Source of the DNA: an uncultured delta proteobacterium | GTDB taxonomy: Bacteria; Myxococcota; Myxococcia; Myxococcales; Myxococcaceae | DNA: 64,000 nt | Assembly: GCA_963796055.1 (NCBI GenBank) | Contig: CAWCKH010000004.1 | Coordinates: 224,001-288,000, forward strand | Direction of reading: 5' to 3' | Shown: positions 1 to 36,000 of the stretch, piece by piece | Position numbering within the stretch: the first letter of the stretch is position 1 | Layout: each line of letters starts with the position of its first letter | Program-made: the position numbers

Positions 1-3000
1 CCTGGGTTCCGATCTGAAGCTGCCCGGGTCGCTGTTCGTCCTCGTCGTCGCCGCCTGGCTGATCACGGTTTCACATCTGGTGGAGGTCCTGGCCTGGGCC
101 AGCTTCATTCGCTGGAAGGGTGCGATGCCGAACGCGAGCATGGCGTACTACCTCGCGCTCCTCGACTACACGACCCTCGGCTGCGAGTACGACCTGCCCG
201 CGAACTGGCGGCTCCTCGAGGGGATGATCGCCATTTCCGGTCTCATGACCTTCGCCTGGTCGACCGGTGTGCTCTTCGCACTGGCACAGGAGTTCCAGGC
301 GCGCGAGCTCCAACGTGGTGAGCCCGGCGCTTCACGAGGGTGACTCCGGTCCCCGGAGACCAGAGGGCCGTTCGCCCGCCTTCGCGAAACGCTGCCCAGG
401 CGGGGTGTGCCGGTCAGGGTGCCCGAGGGTGATACAGGAACTTCTCGGGGCGGACGCCGCCGTCCTTCAGACCGATGAGGACCCAGGATTCGAGGCCTTC
501 CTGAGTCCTCCGGTAGCTCATGCCGTCGAGGTAAAGCGCCCCGGGCGCGGTCCGGACCAGGTGGAAATCGACGGTCTTGTCCTTCGGCTCCCAGCCACGC
601 AGGTCCGGAGCGAAGTGCTTGAGCTGGACGGCCAGCGATTGCCCGGCTTCCACCAGGGTGACGATCTCGAAGACGCTGACCCGGCCGTCGCGCATCCCGC
701 GGTAGACACTGGCCATGTTGCCGGCGAGCGGGGCGAGCCAGGCTTCCTCGGACGTTCCGCCCAGACCGCTACCGACCCAGTCGCCCTCGAGCCAGGCACC
801 GGCGTTGATCCGCGCGGGGGGCGGAGCACTGCCCGGACTCGCCTGCATGACGGGTTCGCCCTGGGGAGGCGCGGAAACGATGGAGGCTCCCGGGCTGGCG
901 ACCCGGGACATCCGGACGCTCAACAGGCCCGCGACGAGCTCGAGCCCCGTCCCGCGCCGGGCGACACGGGCCTTCTCGAAGCGAATCTCGGTAGGGCTGA
1001 TGGATTGGAGCTGCTGCGGGCGGGGAGCGTCCTGAGACTCGCGACCTCGAAGGGCGCTGTCGAAGAGCTTCGATCGCAGGACCAGCGACCCGGCCTCCTC
1101 GCTCACATAGGCCAGCGCGTGGGTAGTGACCTGGCCTCCGCGAACCCGGCGAAACACGCCGACCATGCCTCCGCCCGAGGGTGGAAGCATGAAGGCATCG
1201 ATCCGGTCGTTCGGGGTGCCTTCTCCGCGCCACTGGCCGGCGAGCCAGGCGATCTGGTCGATGCGGGCGGCGGGAGGCGCAGCGCTCGCGCTGACCGCCA
1301 GCAAGGAGCACAAGACGCCCATGCATCGGTCCATGGGCGGCGATGATTCCCGGAAAGCGGGCGGCGGACCACACCGGAAGCGACGGCAGTTCAGCGCTCG
1401 GCGCTCGCTTCGGCCTGGTGACCTTGCTTCGTCAGACCGGAATTTGCCATCCACCCCGAAGAAAGCGACCGCAGCGTGCAGCCGCCGACCGGTCTCGCCG
1501 GTCTTCCAGGTGAGGATCGACTGGAGTTCGCCGCAGCGGAACGCGTGGACCGACGCCGACTGTAAGAGCCCCGCCGGCCCCGCGTCTTTCGCGGCCGATG
1601 AGCCGCGCCCTGGTCCCATCTCTCGTTCTCGGCGTCCTCTGTCTTGCGGGCCACGTGCGCCCGCGCCTCATGGACGATCCCGAGCTGCTCGACGCAGCAC
1701 CCCGGCGGGCGTGGACCCGTGGGGGGAGCCTCGGTCCGGGCTGCCTTTGCCCGCGGGGTGTAATGCCCGGGCGGCCTCTGCGTCGGCAGGCGGTGACAGC
1801 GGGCAACAGCGCCTGCTGCACCCCAGGAGAAGAGACCCCATGCCGTCCACGAACGAGTGCCGTTGCGAGAAGAGGTCCTGTGGCTGCAACCCCACCGAGC
1901 CCTGTCGCTGCAGTGGGCTCTGTCGGTGCCAGAAGGGCTGCGAGTGCGGGAGCGGTTGCGCCTGCACCCCGGCGAAGTAGCCCAACCCCGGTCCGGCGCG
2001 GAGACACGAGAACGTGCCTCCCGCGCCTCATCCCTCACCGTGCACGCAGCCGGTGGAGCCGGGCTCGCCGCAGGTGCAGTCCACGCAGCCACGCTCGGCG
2101 CACGACCCGCACCAGCGCACGACGCGCTTCCGCAGGGTCTCGCGCGCCCGGAACAGGCGCACCGCGGCGTTGTTCGGGGTGATGCCCGCCTCGGAGGCGA
2201 ATGCCTGGACCGAGAGCCCATCGACCTCCACCCGGCGCAGCGCCAGCGCGTACTCGGACTTGAGGGTCTCGGAAAGCCGCGACACACAGCGGCAGACGGC
2301 GTCACGCTCGTCCGGGCTGGGCTCCCGGGTGTCGTGCTCCAGCTCCCGCTGAGGTGAGCTCAGCCCGCGGTCGCTCACGCCCATCCGCCGGTAGTGGTCG
2401 ATCACCCCGTTGCGGAGCACCCGGTAGAACCACGCGGTGACGCTTTCCTCGCGCTCGAGCGGGACCTTGTCCAGGCTCCGGGCGAACGATTCTTGAAGGA
2501 GGTCCTCGGCGGTCTCGCGGTGCCCCACCCGCCGCTCCAGGAACGAGAGAAAGGACCGGCGGTTCTCCGCCATCACCGCGACCAGCTCATTGCGAGTAGG
2601 CATGTGCTTGTCCCGGGCTCAGCGATCTGCAACGGCCGCCCGGGGGTAGGGCCGGGCGGGAAGTCGGGAACGGCGCAACAGCCAGGCGAGGCACGCCGCC
2701 GCAGTGACGTCGTAGGCGAGGCAGAATGGCGGCCACCAGAAAGCCATGACCCACCAATGCCGCGGCAACGAGCCAGAGGCTGGATCGGAAGCCGACGATG
2801 GAGAGGACGATGAAGCCCAGCATGATCGACGCCTCGATTCCGAGCGCCCGCGTGGATTCCCCCATGATTGCGAACAGGCCGTAATACGAAGCGATGAAGT
2901 AGGGCATGGCTCCCTCCCGCGATCCAGGGTGAGCAAGCTCACTTCGCATCTCTTTGCAGGTCAGTACCGCGCACCGGCCCCGCTCGCCGGGTGAGCTGCG

Positions 3001-33000: not shown

Positions 33001-36000
33001 GGCGGTGAAGCACCGGAACACGAACCGGCCGTCCTCGAGGTGACCGCAGCCCACCATGAAGATGAGCGGCTGCCCGCCCCGCGCCGGGAGCTGCGAGAAG
33101 TCGTCGTCGCAGTCGTTCACCGTCTCGAAGTCGACGAAGAACTCGAGCGCCTCCGGCCGGTGCCACTGCTCCTCGGCGAGGGTGACGCGGGCCGGACGAA
33201 CGGCAGGACCGCTCGGGTCGCGGTTGACGTCCAGGAGGGCGTCGAAGCGGGGGCCGTTGACCTCGCCGCGGATGCCCGCGACCTCCGCGCAGAGGTCCGG
33301 ATGATCCCACCGGGTGATGGGCGGCTCGCGCACGAGGAGCGCATCGCGCTTCTCGGCACCCAGGAACCACAGGGAGGTCAGCTCGCGGGTCCTGCTCGCG
33401 ATCTGCTTCTTGGCGGCGTGCCAGGGCGCGTCCTGGGTGTGCTTCATGTTCGGACGGAGCTCGGGGATGTAGGGCTCCGGGTCGACCGACCAGTGTGCGC
33501 CGTCTTGCCGCACGCGACGCACCCACGAGACGGCGGCGTTCGCCGCATCGGCCAGCGGCTCCTTCCGGGTGACCGTTCCCGTCTGGAGGACCGGAGCGAG
33601 CCGCTCGAAGCAGCCCCGGCCACCGTCCTCGCCCTGCTCCCAGGAGCGACCCAGGAGGAAGGCGGCGGGCGGGATGAGGCCCTGGGCCGACCCGAGCGCA
33701 CGGTTGTACAGGAACAGCTGGGCCTTGTAGGCGAGACCCGAGCCGCCGTTCCCGAGCTCGCCGGAGGCAGCCAGGTGGAGCCCGGTGAACTTGATGTCGA
33801 CCACGCGGTAGTGGTGTCTGCCGCCCAGGCGTGGGGCCACGAGCCGCGCGGGAGCGTCCGGCGCGCAGCCCTCCTCGTCGGACTGCCGCTCGAGCTCGAG
33901 CGCATACACACCCGGGAAGAGCCGTTCGAGGACGTCTCCACGGATGAGCAGGTCGGGCATCCCGTAGGTCCGGGTGGGCTCGTCGTGAAGGACCGCGCAG
34001 TGGAGGACCTCCACCCCGGCCTTCATCGCCTCGAGGGTCTCCCGGGCCTTGTCGGGGTCGCGCGAGTCCTGCGCGCTCTCGCCGATCGGGACGATCTCGC
34101 ATCGATTCCGAAGGAGGCGGAGGACCGCGGCCTCGAACGCGCGGCCCTTCTCCATCAGGAAGCGGCAGAAGTCGGTCCGGGGGTCGTACCCAGGGAGATC
34201 GTGGTCCCGGCCGAAGCCGTGCGCCTCGCCGTAGAGCTCGAGTCCGTCGAGGACCGGGTCGCCAGGGGACCCTCGCGGGGAAGGGGACATCGGTTGACAG
34301 GCCGGCGTCCCGTTTCGTAGACACGCCGCCTCATTCCCCGATAGCTCAGCTGGTAGAGCGGGTGACTGTTAATCACCATGTCCGTGGTTCGAGTCCACGT
34401 CGGGGAGCTGAGGGGCACGGAGCCGCGGAGCCGTAAAGAGGTGGTCTTAAAGGGAAGGCCGCGATCCGTGCGGTTCCATCCGTTGCGGGCCGTCGCCGGG
34501 CGGGCCCGGGCGTTCACGTTCCGGCTACGTACGGTGGGCCTCCGCAGAGCCGGAGGACGCAGGGACACCGGGGGCCGACCTGTTCAACCATCGGGGCCGC
34601 TCAGGTTCTGTCAGCGATCAGTCGCGCCTAATCGCCGTTGGGCAACCGTCAGGGGCACCCGCTAGAGGCGTCGAGTGGGCGGGACGCAGTCACGTAGGCC
34701 CCCGAAGCCTCGACCCCCCGTCCCTAGGGAGCCGCTTCGGTCCGCGAGCGGCGGAGTGATCAAGGACCGCAGGCTTCTGCTTTCGACGGCGCCGACCATC
34801 CAAGGAAGTGGCGGCACACCATCGGTCGCGTGGATCAACATCAAGTCCGACATCCTGCTCGACACGTCGGTGATCGGCTGGGTGAAGGACGACGCGCCCA
34901 ATCGTCGGCGCCTAATCCGACGGGTAAACCAGCTCACTGAGGTTGCGGGCAGCTGCTGGATTGCCGTCGACACGCTGAACGAGCTGGTTCGGACGCCGCC
35001 GGATGGGAGACTCCAGGCGGTCGTGTCGGCGCTGCTGCACATCGACGCGGAGGTACGGGGGAGGCTTCGGGTGCTGGACCTTGTCACGACCGCGCACCGC
35101 CGGGAGCTTGTCGAGCGTCGTACCGGCATCGACACCTGGCCGCTCGCTAGTCTTTCTTCGGAGCTGGCGAACGTCGCGCGGACCGGAAGCCTCGACGGAG
35201 CACCGACCCTGCAAAGAGGCCTTGAGCAAACCGAGAGGTTCCTGCAACGCCACCGGGCAGCGATGAAAGAGGTATCGGACGCGTGGAAGAAGAAGCGGGC
35301 GGAGAACCCGAGCTTGGTCGAAGAGGTCCGCGTCTTGCTCGGTAGTTTCCGCGCGCCCCAGGCACTCCTAGCCCCACGAGCGTTGCTGGAGCTTGTCTGC
35401 AGGGACTACGGCTGGAAGCCAGAGCGAGTGAAGATCGAGTTGGATCGCGCGCACGAGCAGCCCGAGAAGTACTGGAGCTGCTGGACGTGGGGACTTCTAA
35501 TTTCGCTGCTCGACCTGCTGGAGACGGTTCCTGCCCGGGAGAGGATGGAACTGGATCCCCAGATTGGCGCGCTCCGGACCGACCGCAACGACTGGATGGA
35601 CGCCAACATCGTCGGAGCTGGAGCGCGCTGCGGAACCCTGATCACCGCGGACAGGGACCTGCATCTTCGGTGCGCGTTGCTCTACGACCGCGACCTGATC
35701 GGCATCTGCTCCGAGCTGTTCTCTGCGCCTGGCCGGTGACAAGTGGAGGAACGATGGGCTCCTACGAAGCACTGGTTGCGCGCGTGACCGCCGCGGGCGT
35801 CGAGAGCCTCAACCGGGCTCGGATTTTGCGCTCCCGGGCATCCGCGACGCCCTTCGGCACCATGGGACCGAACCGGCTCACGAACGCCCCCTGCATCTGG
35901 TGGCGCTCGCGCACGCGCCCCGGGCGGTCCGGTGCGAAGTCGAGCCGGATCTCGGTCCGGTTGTGGTTGAGCTCGGGCGTCGCCACCGGGAGGCGGTCGA

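What a model noticed while it worked through the whole genome (the two positions that open the first line are those of the whole stretch)
1..34408. Cassette array at tRNA-Asn punctuated by pieces of one unannotated nuclease gene
Divergent from tRNA-Asn lies g01529, a 595-aa two-domain nuclease-like protein of no Pfam or NCBIfam family. The next 33 kb hold nine further sites with 79-98% identical, internally deleted pieces of its 3' half, all in the same orientation, each separating a cargo block (AbiEi/ii, ParE, PemK and MqsRA toxin-antitoxin pairs, kinase-TPR, ArsP and others). Relatives have the same punctuation with cargo in another order, so this is a variable cassette array built on gene fragments, not on attC sites or an integrase.
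Evidence so far: blastn and tblastn map of the pieces; gene list. Genus genome G151 has 8 matches on 4 short contigs, with shared cargo in another order and new cargo; G102 and a MAG keep tRNA-Asn, a cut nuclease and the kinase cassette directly behind it. 1270 full-length homologs without a Pfam; model pLDDT 88 with weak DnaQ/TREX and MGME1 likeness and invariant acidic residues. The other side of the tRNA shows the same pattern with pieces of a DUF3857 gene. It is the only such dispersed fragment array in a genome-wide self-comparison. Searches 99 and 215 found nothing. The finding spans contig positions 223503 to 258408; this window holds only 224001 to 258408 of it.
(Added by a program. 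Inside this text positions count along the whole contig: contig position 224,001 is position 1 of the stretch shown here. "Call 12" and the like, gene names such as g00115 and contig names such as C1 are that model's own, and its searches are not shown. The text may have been shortened before it was handed on; [...] marks where a part breaks off. The agent that wrote the report below was given it as the finding of a first reader that could run no searches.)

Follow-up and report, generated by a model that had tools for sequence, protein, structure and literature searches.

The report
Gene-scar array beside a tRNA
Next to a tRNA gene of an uncultured soil-type bacterium, blocks of accessory genes have piled up between broken end-pieces of one dead nuclease gene, most likely because related species swap these blocks by ordinary recombination using the pieces as landing pads, as known for Rhs and type VI toxin arrays but here without a toxin anchor.

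Summary
The array is real: nine co-oriented pieces of the 3' half of g01529 separate cargo over 33 kb. Three corrections. (1) g01529 is itself cut at its 5' end and is a remote TM0106/COG2251 (Cas4-like + DEDD) nuclease, elsewhere often the tail of BREX-2, Wadjet or type III RM genes. (2) The nuclease is probably not the engine: 0 of 80 homologous loci from other lineages carry own-gene pieces, and other genes in the same zone (DUF3857, an HTH gene, PemK) show the same insert-plus-duplicate scar. (3) Blocks are not fixed cassettes; many junctions lack a piece. The pieces share derived deletions across positions and species in combinations that need recombination among broken pieces; 54 of 59 shared blocks keep orientation while order changes; cargo is closer between species than core DNA; the five tRNA-proximal pieces keep the stop region and the four distal ones lost it. 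No integrase, displaced tRNA-Asn piece or IS91 end lies in the array. Best reading: homology-anchored additive exchange (rhs-type displacement) followed by end-joining-like erosion. New variant of a known kind; mechanism inferred, not shown.

The parts
34335..34408 (+). tRNA-Asn(GTT), the only one in the genome; the selected fixed point of the zone
34295..34324 (+). sigma-70-like promoter of the tRNA (TTGACA, then a -10-like hexamer); four genomes diverge 4 bp upstream of it
   Evidence: read from the sequence; alignment; promoter function inferred
32503..34290 (-). g01529: 5'-truncated TM0106/COG2251-like nuclease gene (Cas4-like PD-(D/E)XK domain + DEDD exonuclease); homology starts near 34263; the anchor of the array
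30817..32348 (-). cargo: AbiEi-AbiEii pair
30254..30808 (-). piece P1 (gene nt 1200-1808), carries lesion A, keeps stop
28203..30194 (+). cargo: ABC1 kinase, RHH antitoxin, ParE
27189..27982 (-). piece P2 (nt 963-1788 plus 9 bp), carries lesion B, keeps stop
26145..27188 (-). cargo: PemK-type toxin (26447-26803) and a 230-bp segment also found on contig C7
25913..26144 (-). piece P3 (nt 1502-1788), carries lesion A, keeps stop
23360..25871 (-). cargo: kinase-TPR gene, in two frames here, one 826-836-aa ORF in L023 and G010
23262..23330 (-). piece P4 (nt 1695-1746, then the stop codon and the 8 bp behind it)
20942..23248 (+). cargo: second kinase-TPR gene (71-77% identical to the first, inverted)
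20375..20879 (-). piece P5 (nt 1096-1788 with three deletions, keeps stop) preceded by a separate sliver of nt 1616-1680
16087..20189 (-). cargo: MqsR-MqsA, ArsP, thioredoxin, second PemK piece (17488-17736), HTH, NHL protein
16128..16276 (-). piece P6 (nt 1412-1560), no stop; lies inside the 3' end of the NHL ORF
14816..16081 (+). cargo: zinc-binding dehydrogenase
14067..14543 (-). piece P7 (nt 1241-1747), carries lesion B, no stop
3573..12915 (.). cargo mosaic without detected pieces between blocks: CLC channel, OsmC, enoyl-CoA hydratase, DUF5122, cut ABC1, galactose-oxidase-like protein, cut Usp
3461..3522 (-). piece P8 (nt 1604-1667), no stop
414..2603 (-). cargo: DUF6265 protein, ECF sigma factor; piece P9 lies 438-497 bases before the window start
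38039..39163 (-). 5' part of a broken DUF3857-transglutaminase gene, anchor of the right-hand array
36329..37987 (+). DUF4236 cargo gene inserted into the DUF3857 gene
36101..36180 (-). 80-bp direct duplication of 38054-38133 flanking the DUF4236 insert; the gene continues to 35762
44529..44819 (-). DUF3857 piece (copy of 38401-38690, 93%)
48373..48526 (-). DUF3857 piece (copy of 38704-38857, 94%)
43104..43711 (+). piece of the HTH gene at 41800-42297 repeated behind a methyltransferase and split by a GNAT gene

Best explanation
An integrase-free accretion zone. Species of this genus share a pool of accessory blocks around tRNA-Asn. A block arriving from a relative carries a stretch of the nuclease gene's 3' end; RecA-type recombination with the resident gene or with an older piece (single crossover of a circle as in the rhs model, or homology-facilitated illegitimate recombination) adds the block without removing the old one, and leaves the displaced 3' end in front of the old cargo. 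Every such event adds one more landing pad, so the most copied sequence keeps gaining copies. Recombination between pieces also excises and reshuffles blocks. Error-prone deletion then erodes everything unselected up to the edge of the tRNA promoter and of cargo genes. The nuclease came in as the tail gene of a defence-type island, is now a pseudogene, and acts as DNA homology, not as an enzyme. Shown: pieces, shared lesions, kept orientation, changed order, cross-species identity, absence of recombinase signatures. Inferred: the recombination route, the circular or linear intermediate, the time order, and the role of Ku/LigD in erosion.
For: Three derived lesions are shared across positions and species: A in P1, P3 and G006-C299a, each before different cargo; B in P2, P7 and G006-C371; C in G006-C299a and C371. 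A-without-B-or-C, B-without-A-or-C, B+C and C+A cannot sit on one tree without a crossover between already broken pieces or a repeated identical lesion. The same cargo follows an intact gene in one record and a broken piece in another (MqsRA: L021 versus P5). 54 of 59 blocks shared with 11 relative loci keep the majority orientation, while 13 of 48 neighbouring pairs jump backwards. Zone DNA is 96-97% identical to G006 and 95-98% to G011, against 86-87% and 78-79% in a 15-kb core stretch. The DUF4236 insert is flanked by an 80-bp duplication of its target gene relative to an uninterrupted homologue, and G011 has its own DUF3857 piece array. P1-P5 keep the stop region, P6-P9 do not (two-sided chance 0.016, post hoc); length falls with distance (rho -0.67, p 0.05). 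No tyrosine recombinase between contig positions 31,400 and 1,203,000, no serine recombinase in the genome, no displaced tRNA-Asn or promoter piece, no IS91 end or transposase in the zone. ComEC, two Ku and LigD genes are present. Precedent: rhs tip displacement (PMC2935791) and T6SS effector displacement (PMC5361080).
Against: No intermediate was seen. The two 5' joints whose cargo-side parent is known (P3, P4) show no microhomology, unlike the short microhomologies I recall for HFIR. The kinase block is followed by different DNA in three genomes, so piece-plus-cargo is not a stable unit. Many block joints carry no piece. Cargo also recurs at other loci of the genome (contigs C1, C5, C7), which homology to the nuclease does not explain. 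The identity contrast is small for G010 (91-95% against 89-90%) and vanishes against a ribosomal-protein/RNA-polymerase stretch (88-96%). Piece divergence from the intact allele shows no gradient (2-7%). G006's contigs are short and two of its pieces end at contig ends, so collapsed assembly could mimic one lesion combination. Six or seven cargo types diverge within about 8-20 bp behind the stop codon, which a fixed insertion site would also give.
Confidence: 0.55

Rival explanations
1. Decayed tandem islands: an integrative element ending in nuclease plus cargo integrated repeatedly at one site; deletion removed the front part of each copy and left the DNA nearest the selected cargo.
For: The family is typical of defence islands: fused to BrxHI, JetD or type III REase, beside HsdR in G006. 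The genome stacks islands this way at tRNA-His (12 half-genes, integrases nearby). Erosion is strong enough to cut IS91 copies to slivers. A piece lies 10 kb from tmRNA in G007. Polarity fits.
Against: At tRNA-His the fragments share a sharp boundary and integrase remnants survive; here the 5' ends range from nt 963 to 1695, there is no integrase remnant and no tRNA-Asn fragment of either half. The array is on the 5' side of the tRNA. Independent erosion would not give identical internal lesions at different positions.
Confidence: 0.16
2. In-place tandem duplication and random loss: the zone duplicates locally and deletions leave partial copies and a shuffled, co-oriented order, with no need for incoming homology.
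For: Orientation kept and order changed; partial second copies of PemK, thioredoxin, HTH and a toxin gene; shared lesions follow naturally from copying pieces.
Against: Most cargo is single-copy. Identical lesions and 95-98% identical blocks occur in species whose core is 78-87% identical, which needs transfer. Pieces are no closer to g01529 than to alleles of other genomes.
Confidence: 0.12
3. IS91/ISCR rolling-circle read-through made the circles (piece plus cargo), which then integrated by homology, as for the partial 3'-CS copies of complex class 1 integrons.
For: Same geometry as ISCR1 integrons: fixed end about 25 bp behind sul1, variable other end (PMC7707992). An IS91-like family with a full-length 507-aa frame is abundant in the genome. 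In G006 an 83-bp oriIS end is fused to the 5' end of a nuclease piece in the orientation for read-through into cargo. The 5 bases behind the stop are the complement of the element's target core.
Against: 0 oriIS or transposase matches in the G000 zone and 1 among the 18 relative loci searched. The bases after the target-like motif are gene-derived in all copies, not oriIS.
Confidence: 0.08
4. The nuclease is a capture enzyme: its Cas4-like and DnaQ-like domains, both used for prespacer trimming in CRISPR adaptation, process foreign DNA, perhaps with Ku/LigD, and insert it behind its own gene with a long target duplication.
For: Fold matches to Cas4 (Z 12.6) and DEDD exonucleases (Z 14.6); catalytic motifs invariant; nine Dehalococcoidia loci place the gene in an operon with DUF72 and LigD, divergent from Ku; 10 of 12 distinct deletion joints have unmatched filler and only 1 has microhomology; cargo starts about 8 bp behind the stop.
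Against: 0 of 80 homologous loci have own-gene pieces of 50 bp or more. The resident copy is 5'-cut in G000, L022, L023 and nearly gone in G010. Other genes show the same scar. Capture without homology should not fix orientation, yet 54 of 59 blocks agree.
Confidence: 0.06
5. Assembly artefact from mixed strains.
For: The genome is a metagenome-type assembly of a hypervariable zone; tRNA-Asn is missing from 10 of 13 genus assemblies. No read-level check was obtained.
Against: Pieces differ from each other by 2-12% and by private lesions; joints and lesions recur in independent records.
Confidence: 0.02

Closest known systems
rhs C-terminal displacement arrays (Jackson et al. 2009, PMC2935791; passages read), with cdi and maf orphan arrays
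   Same: One long gene followed by co-oriented fragments of variable length of the same gene, each tied to different downstream DNA; no integrase; proposed excision and re-insertion of circles by homologous recombination.
   Different: There the fragment is a core piece and the exchanged part is the protein's own toxic tip plus immunity gene. Here the fragment ends at the stop codon, the protein is unchanged, the anchor is a pseudogene, and the cargo is general (TA pairs, kinases, transporters).
Vibrio cholerae T6SS effector-immunity arrays built by sequential displacement (Kirchberger et al. 2017, PMC5361080; passages read)
   Same: Additive, polar growth at an anchor; a displaced 3' gene end can remain before old genes; HFIR proposed; likened to integrons but with no integrase.
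   Different: Selection there keeps orphan immunity genes of one function; here cargo is unrelated to the anchor and the duplicate is homologous on both sides.
Complex class 1 integrons with ISCR1 and partial 3'-CS duplications (PMC7707992; passages read)
   Same: Repeated partial copies with a fixed end just behind a stop codon and a variable other end; circles rescued by homologous recombination.
   Different: Each unit there holds ISCR1; none lies in this array.
tRNA-seeded additive islands: tandem tDNA islands (Islander, PMC4383910, passages) and tycheposon-built islands (bioRxiv 10.1101/2020.12.28.424599, passages)
   Same: Growth beside a tRNA, newest and most variable DNA proximal, remnants distal.
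   Different: Those are marked by integrases and displaced tRNA fragments; both are absent at this tRNA-Asn but present at tRNA-His of the same genome.
TM0106 family RecB-like nuclease (TIGR03491, COG2251; PD-(D/E)XK-like DUF83 plus PF13482, PMC3985635, passages)
   Same: Two-domain Cas4-like plus DEDD architecture; weak profile hits in 19 of 20 family members; structural match to MrfB (Z 12.8).
   Different: Longer (about 600-630 aa), remote subfamily without a curated model; shared with giant viruses; this copy is 5'-truncated.

Membership tests
Integron cassette array | integron integrase (tyrosine recombinase) at or near the array | tested here: not met
   23 PF00589 matches in the genome, none between contig positions 31,400 and 1,203,000
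Integron cassette array | attC sites at cassette ends | tested here: inconclusive
   self-comparison shows no other repeat family, but no attC covariance model was run
Tandem tDNA islands | displaced fragment of the target tRNA at each island end | tested here: not met
   no tRNA-Asn or promoter fragment of 15 bp or more in the left array; positive control at tRNA-His
Tandem tDNA islands | integrase or large serine recombinase in the units | tested here: not met
Islands integrating into a protein-coding gene | displaced pieces share one crossover boundary | tested here: not met
   5' ends at nt 963, 1096, 1200, 1241, 1275, 1412, 1502, 1604, 1695; erosion could hide a boundary at or before 963
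ISCR-built arrays | IS91-type transposase or oriIS in the units | tested here: not met
   none in the G000 zone; one oriIS end beside a piece in G006
rhs/cdi/maf polymorphic toxin arrays | co-oriented variable-length fragments of the anchor gene downstream of it | tested here: met
rhs/cdi/maf polymorphic toxin arrays | anchor is a secreted toxin whose C-terminus is exchanged, with immunity genes | tested here: not met
   anchor is a cytoplasmic-type nuclease; pieces end at the same stop codon
rhs/cdi/maf polymorphic toxin arrays | exchange by homologous recombination without integrase | tested here: inconclusive
   recombination among pieces inferred from lesions; enzymology not testable
TM0106/COG2251 nuclease | N-terminal PD-(D/E)XK (Cas4/RecB-like) domain | tested here: met
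   Cas4 8d3l_I Z 12.6, rmsd 3.9, 193 aligned; PDLL, VDIK and QL motifs conserved
TM0106/COG2251 nuclease | C-terminal RNase_H_2/DEDD exonuclease domain | tested here: met
   PolB exonuclease Z 14.6, MrfB Z 12.8; PF13482 above cut-off in homologues P0189 and P0228
TM0106/COG2251 nuclease | score above the curated TIGR03491 cut-off | tested here: not met
   no hit for g01529; 19 of 20 members hit at E up to 1, best 3.8e-6
TM0106/COG2251 nuclease | nuclease activity | not testable with these tools
   needs purified protein

The most novel reading that the evidence does not exclude
The genus runs a self-feeding, recombinase-free cassette system: end-joining (Ku/LigD) circularises or caps DNA fragments from kin, RecA adds them at a pseudogene whose 3' end is kept only as a landing pad, and a preferred joint about 8 bp behind the stop codon gives integron-like polarity for general cargo, possibly seeded by the nuclease itself, whose relatives sit in a DUF72-LigD operon beside Ku.
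Probability: 0.12. Interest if true: 0.85.

Novelty: new variant of a known kind. Interest (0 to 1): 0.5.

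Why it matters
[quoted passage not shown] Here the growth steps are written in the sequence: each added block left a datable, lesion-marked copy of its anchor. 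It extends the rhs/T6SS displacement logic from toxin tips to ordinary cargo and to a dead anchor gene, and gives a test case for how recombination and end-joining together build integron-like arrays. The unmodelled nuclease subfamily, found at the ends of BREX-2, Wadjet and type III RM operons and in a LigD operon, is a separate lead.

Tried and rejected
Nuclease-specific capture: tested on the best 80 of 232 confirmed GTDB loci (50 of 80 with the full 10 kb downstream); none had own-gene pieces of 50 bp or more; the strongest short hit was 29 bp at 93% in L045, and L069 holds a full paralogue. A recombination-site motif behind the stop: the 9-mer is not enriched in the window (17 matches against 20.6 expected) and its copy at the PemK block looks like coding sequence. 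IS91 target use at the stop: the bases after the motif are not oriIS. Integrase, serine recombinase and tRNA-fragment searches were negative. Pfam, NCBIfam, PADLOC and PDB sequence searches gave nothing for g01529 itself; Foldseek gave no match at E<=0.001. No close relative in viral contigs; 41 loci at 20-37% identity, many labelled giant-virus MAGs. Outside the genus, the 3'-half DNA matched 1 of 196 family genomes, at 66% identity, with only two candidates scored per genome. Twenty sequencing runs hold at most 35% of the sampled words of 27100-34420; none was laid, so they are no evidence. Literature: nothing on TM0106 biology, five papers naming COG2251, and no description of such an array in the listings. 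No supplements were read. Earlier scan notes had nothing at this place or for this sequence.

Full report
Observation. The window lies on contig C4 of a 5.5-Mb, 98.5% complete genome. Its tmRNA tag resembles myxobacterial tags; that label is recalled, not from a call. tRNA-Asn is at 34335-34408 and a 595-aa ORF runs away from it at 34290-32503. The gene's DNA matches nine further sites over the next 33 kb, 9 of 9 on the same strand (chance 0.004) and all from nt 963-1808 of the gene. Two piece-cargo joints recur in independent records, so the structure is real, although no reads were laid on it.

The anchor gene. Aligned with 19 homologues, g01529 lacks the conserved N-terminal motif and starts inside the second motif; an intact allele, 96% identical, exists in L021. 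The cut gene is joined to DNA just upstream of the tRNA promoter, and four genomes diverge from one another 4 bp before the -35 box. g01529 hits no Pfam, NCBIfam or PADLOC model, but 19 of 20 alignment members hit TIGR03491 at E up to 1, best 3.8e-6, and one homologue is named a predicted RecB family nuclease. The model (pLDDT 83) matches Cas4 in the N-terminal half (Z 12.6) and DEDD exonucleases including MrfB in the C-terminal half (Z 12.8-14.6). That is the COG2251 architecture described in PMC3985635 (passages). The family is large (1,567 representatives at E<=1e-30). Of 15 long members that I chose from the 150 listed, 5 are fused to Wadjet JetD-type domains, 3 to helicases (BrxHI/Lhr or ResIII), 4 to YqaJ and 3 to AAA domains; phylum relatives carry it at the end of BREX type 2 or beside type III RM, DrmD and JetAB genes, and in G006 its 5' end faces away from an HsdR-like gene (label from my reading of the translation). 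Against L021 the pieces P1-P8 show 54 synonymous and 70 non-synonymous differences (44% synonymous; neutral expectation 28%), plus frameshifts: they are decaying DNA.

Is the protein the cause? I searched the best 80 of 232 GTDB loci with a homologue (44-55% identical, mostly Chloroflexota) for pieces of their own gene: 0 of 80 had any of 50 bp or more; 50 of the 80 had the full 10 kb downstream. Pieces occur in 5 of 13 genus genomes at E<1e-20 and not in other genera of the family, apart from one 66% match. Other genes in the zone show the same scar. The DUF3857-transglutaminase gene on the right is interrupted by a DUF4236 gene flanked by an 80-bp duplication of the target, seen against an uninterrupted homologue; two more DUF3857 pieces follow, and G011 has four such pieces between cargo on one 7-kb contig. 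An HTH gene, a toxin-like gene, PemK and thioredoxin each have one partial second copy. The process belongs to the zone and the genus, not to the enzyme. The contexts of the closest intact homologues (P0001-P0019) could not be fetched, which leaves a gap.

Is it site-specific? No tyrosine recombinase lies within 190 kb, no serine recombinase is in the genome, and no fragment of tRNA-Asn or its promoter lies in the array. The genome supplies a control: at tRNA-His, 12 half-genes with a shared boundary and several integrases mark classical stacked islands (definition from PMC4383910, passages). The nuclease pieces have nine different 5' ends. Their 3' ends cluster: P1-P5 keep the stop region and cargo types diverge about 8-20 bp behind it. 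This may be a preferred joint or simply erosion to a gene edge, as at the tRNA promoter and at the stop of the hydratase block; I cannot separate the two. An IS91-like family is abundant, but no oriIS or transposase lies in the zone; one oriIS end is fused to a piece in G006.

Evidence for homology-driven exchange. First, lesions. Lesion A (deletion near nt 1552-1625 with the same scar) is in P1, P3 and G006-C299a, before three different cargo blocks; lesion B (indel near 1302-1327) is in P2, P7 and G006-C371; lesion C (25-bp deletion) is in both G006 pieces. If each arose once, at least one crossover between broken pieces is needed. Both G006 pieces end at contig ends, so assembly collapse is a caveat. 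Second, order. Across 11 relative loci, 54 of 59 shared blocks keep the majority orientation (3 of the 5 exceptions are one block) and 13 of 48 neighbouring pairs jump backwards. Third, transfer. Blocks and pieces are 96-97% identical to G006 and 95-98% to G011, whose core DNA in one 15-kb test stretch is 86-87% and 78-79% identical; the contrast is weak for G010 and against a more conserved test stretch. Fourth, polarity: the five proximal pieces keep the stop region and the four distal ones do not (0.016, post hoc), and length falls with distance (rho -0.67, p 0.05, lengths entered by hand); sequence divergence shows no gradient. L021, with MqsRA directly behind an intact gene, looks like the state before four later additions, but deletion between pieces would give the same picture. 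ComEC is present.

Erosion. Of 12 distinct deletion joints resolved (16 rows; P4 and L023 gave none), 1 has microhomology (9 bp), 1 is blunt and 10 have 1-26 unmatched bases; later substitutions and stacked deletions can create such filler. Resection with non-templated bases is typical of Ku/LigD repair, which can also capture foreign DNA (PMC6379672, passages). The genome has two Ku and several LigD genes. Their role here is inference.

Against the cassette reading: many block joints have no piece, the kinase block is followed by different DNA in three genomes, and cargo recurs at other loci. The pieces are scars and landing pads in a larger mosaic, about 120 kb around the tRNA, that breaks assemblies: tRNA-Asn is found in only 3 of 13 genus genomes.

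Comparison. It works like rhs tip displacement, where circles with a core fragment of variable length are excised and re-inserted by homologous recombination and shunt the old tip downstream (PMC2935791, passages), and like T6SS effector displacement (PMC5361080, passages). Its geometry also recalls the partial 3'-CS copies of ISCR1 integrons (PMC7707992, passages) and its polarity the tycheposon islands (bioRxiv 10.1101/2020.12.28.424599, passages). It is a member of none: no toxin tip, no ISCR, no integrase. I found no description of a displacement array on a non-toxin pseudogene with general cargo in the listings; the library lacks most subscription papers. Earlier scan notes describe similar scars in other genomes; they are unchecked and were used only as leads.

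Verdict. Real, and an unusually clear and extended record of additive recombination at a mobile-element-free hotspot: new variant of a known kind, interest 0.5. Confidence in homology-anchored accretion plus erosion is 0.55; decayed tandem islands 0.16; in-place duplication-loss 0.12; IS91 seeding 0.08; capture by the nuclease 0.06.

Noticed in passing
L029-L033, L035, L038-L040: In 9 of 80 loci (related Dehalococcoidia MAGs, not independent) the nuclease gene is followed after 12 bp by DUF72 and, in the 8 long enough, LigD; Ku lies divergently upstream across a gap of 0.2-7 kb. Suggests a role in end-joining repair.
   Followed up: partly
P0121, P0123, P0133, P0134, P0152, P0167, P0174; L171, L173-L175: The two-domain nuclease is fused to BrxHI of BREX type 2, to JetD of Wadjet and to type III restriction helicases: a recurrent add-on of defence operons without a curated model.
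   Followed up: partly
L130-L170: 41 viral contigs, many labelled giant-virus MAGs, carry 20-37% identical homologues; some library members are fused to YqaJ or Lon-like AAA domains.
   Followed up: no
G000 C4:4,900-31,600; C5:219,000-227,000; C7:47,000-63,000: Twelve tRNA-His half-gene fragments with a shared boundary and nearby integrases: a long tandem island array probably split over three contigs.
   Followed up: partly
G000 C5:86,200-87,950 and more than 25 other sites: IS91-like (Y2 transposase) family with a conserved oriIS end followed by a CTTGGA-like target; most copies are eroded slivers.
   Followed up: partly
L112 (G006 C299):1250-1415: An 83-bp oriIS end is fused directly to the 5' end of a nuclease piece that precedes ABC1 cargo.
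   Followed up: partly
L110 (G008 C131):1140-5435: In G008 tRNA-Asn with its promoter lies 4 kb from tRNA-SeC and has other neighbours on both sides, with no nuclease piece.
   Followed up: no
window 49820-57748: 2,642-aa ORF with RCC1-like and other repeats, lower GC3 than the host; not scanned against families.
   Followed up: no
G000 C4:477,707-478,143 and about 40 other sites: A family of about 80-86-bp tandem intergenic repeats spread over the genome.
   Followed up: no
G000 C4:3,118,970-3,121,462: Cluster of nine tRNA genes, several redundant with copies elsewhere; may be of mobile origin.
   Followed up: no
L047-L056, L094, L101: In Tepidiformaceae-type loci the nuclease lies near tRNA-Thr and tuf, and a PIN toxin gene follows it in 5 loci: a small variable slot, without gene pieces.
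   Followed up: no
L187 (G007 C1):656-6339: Another local set of direct partial repeats (213, 99, 84, 47 bp) among cargo at a contig end in G007, with an anchor unrelated to the nuclease.
   Followed up: no
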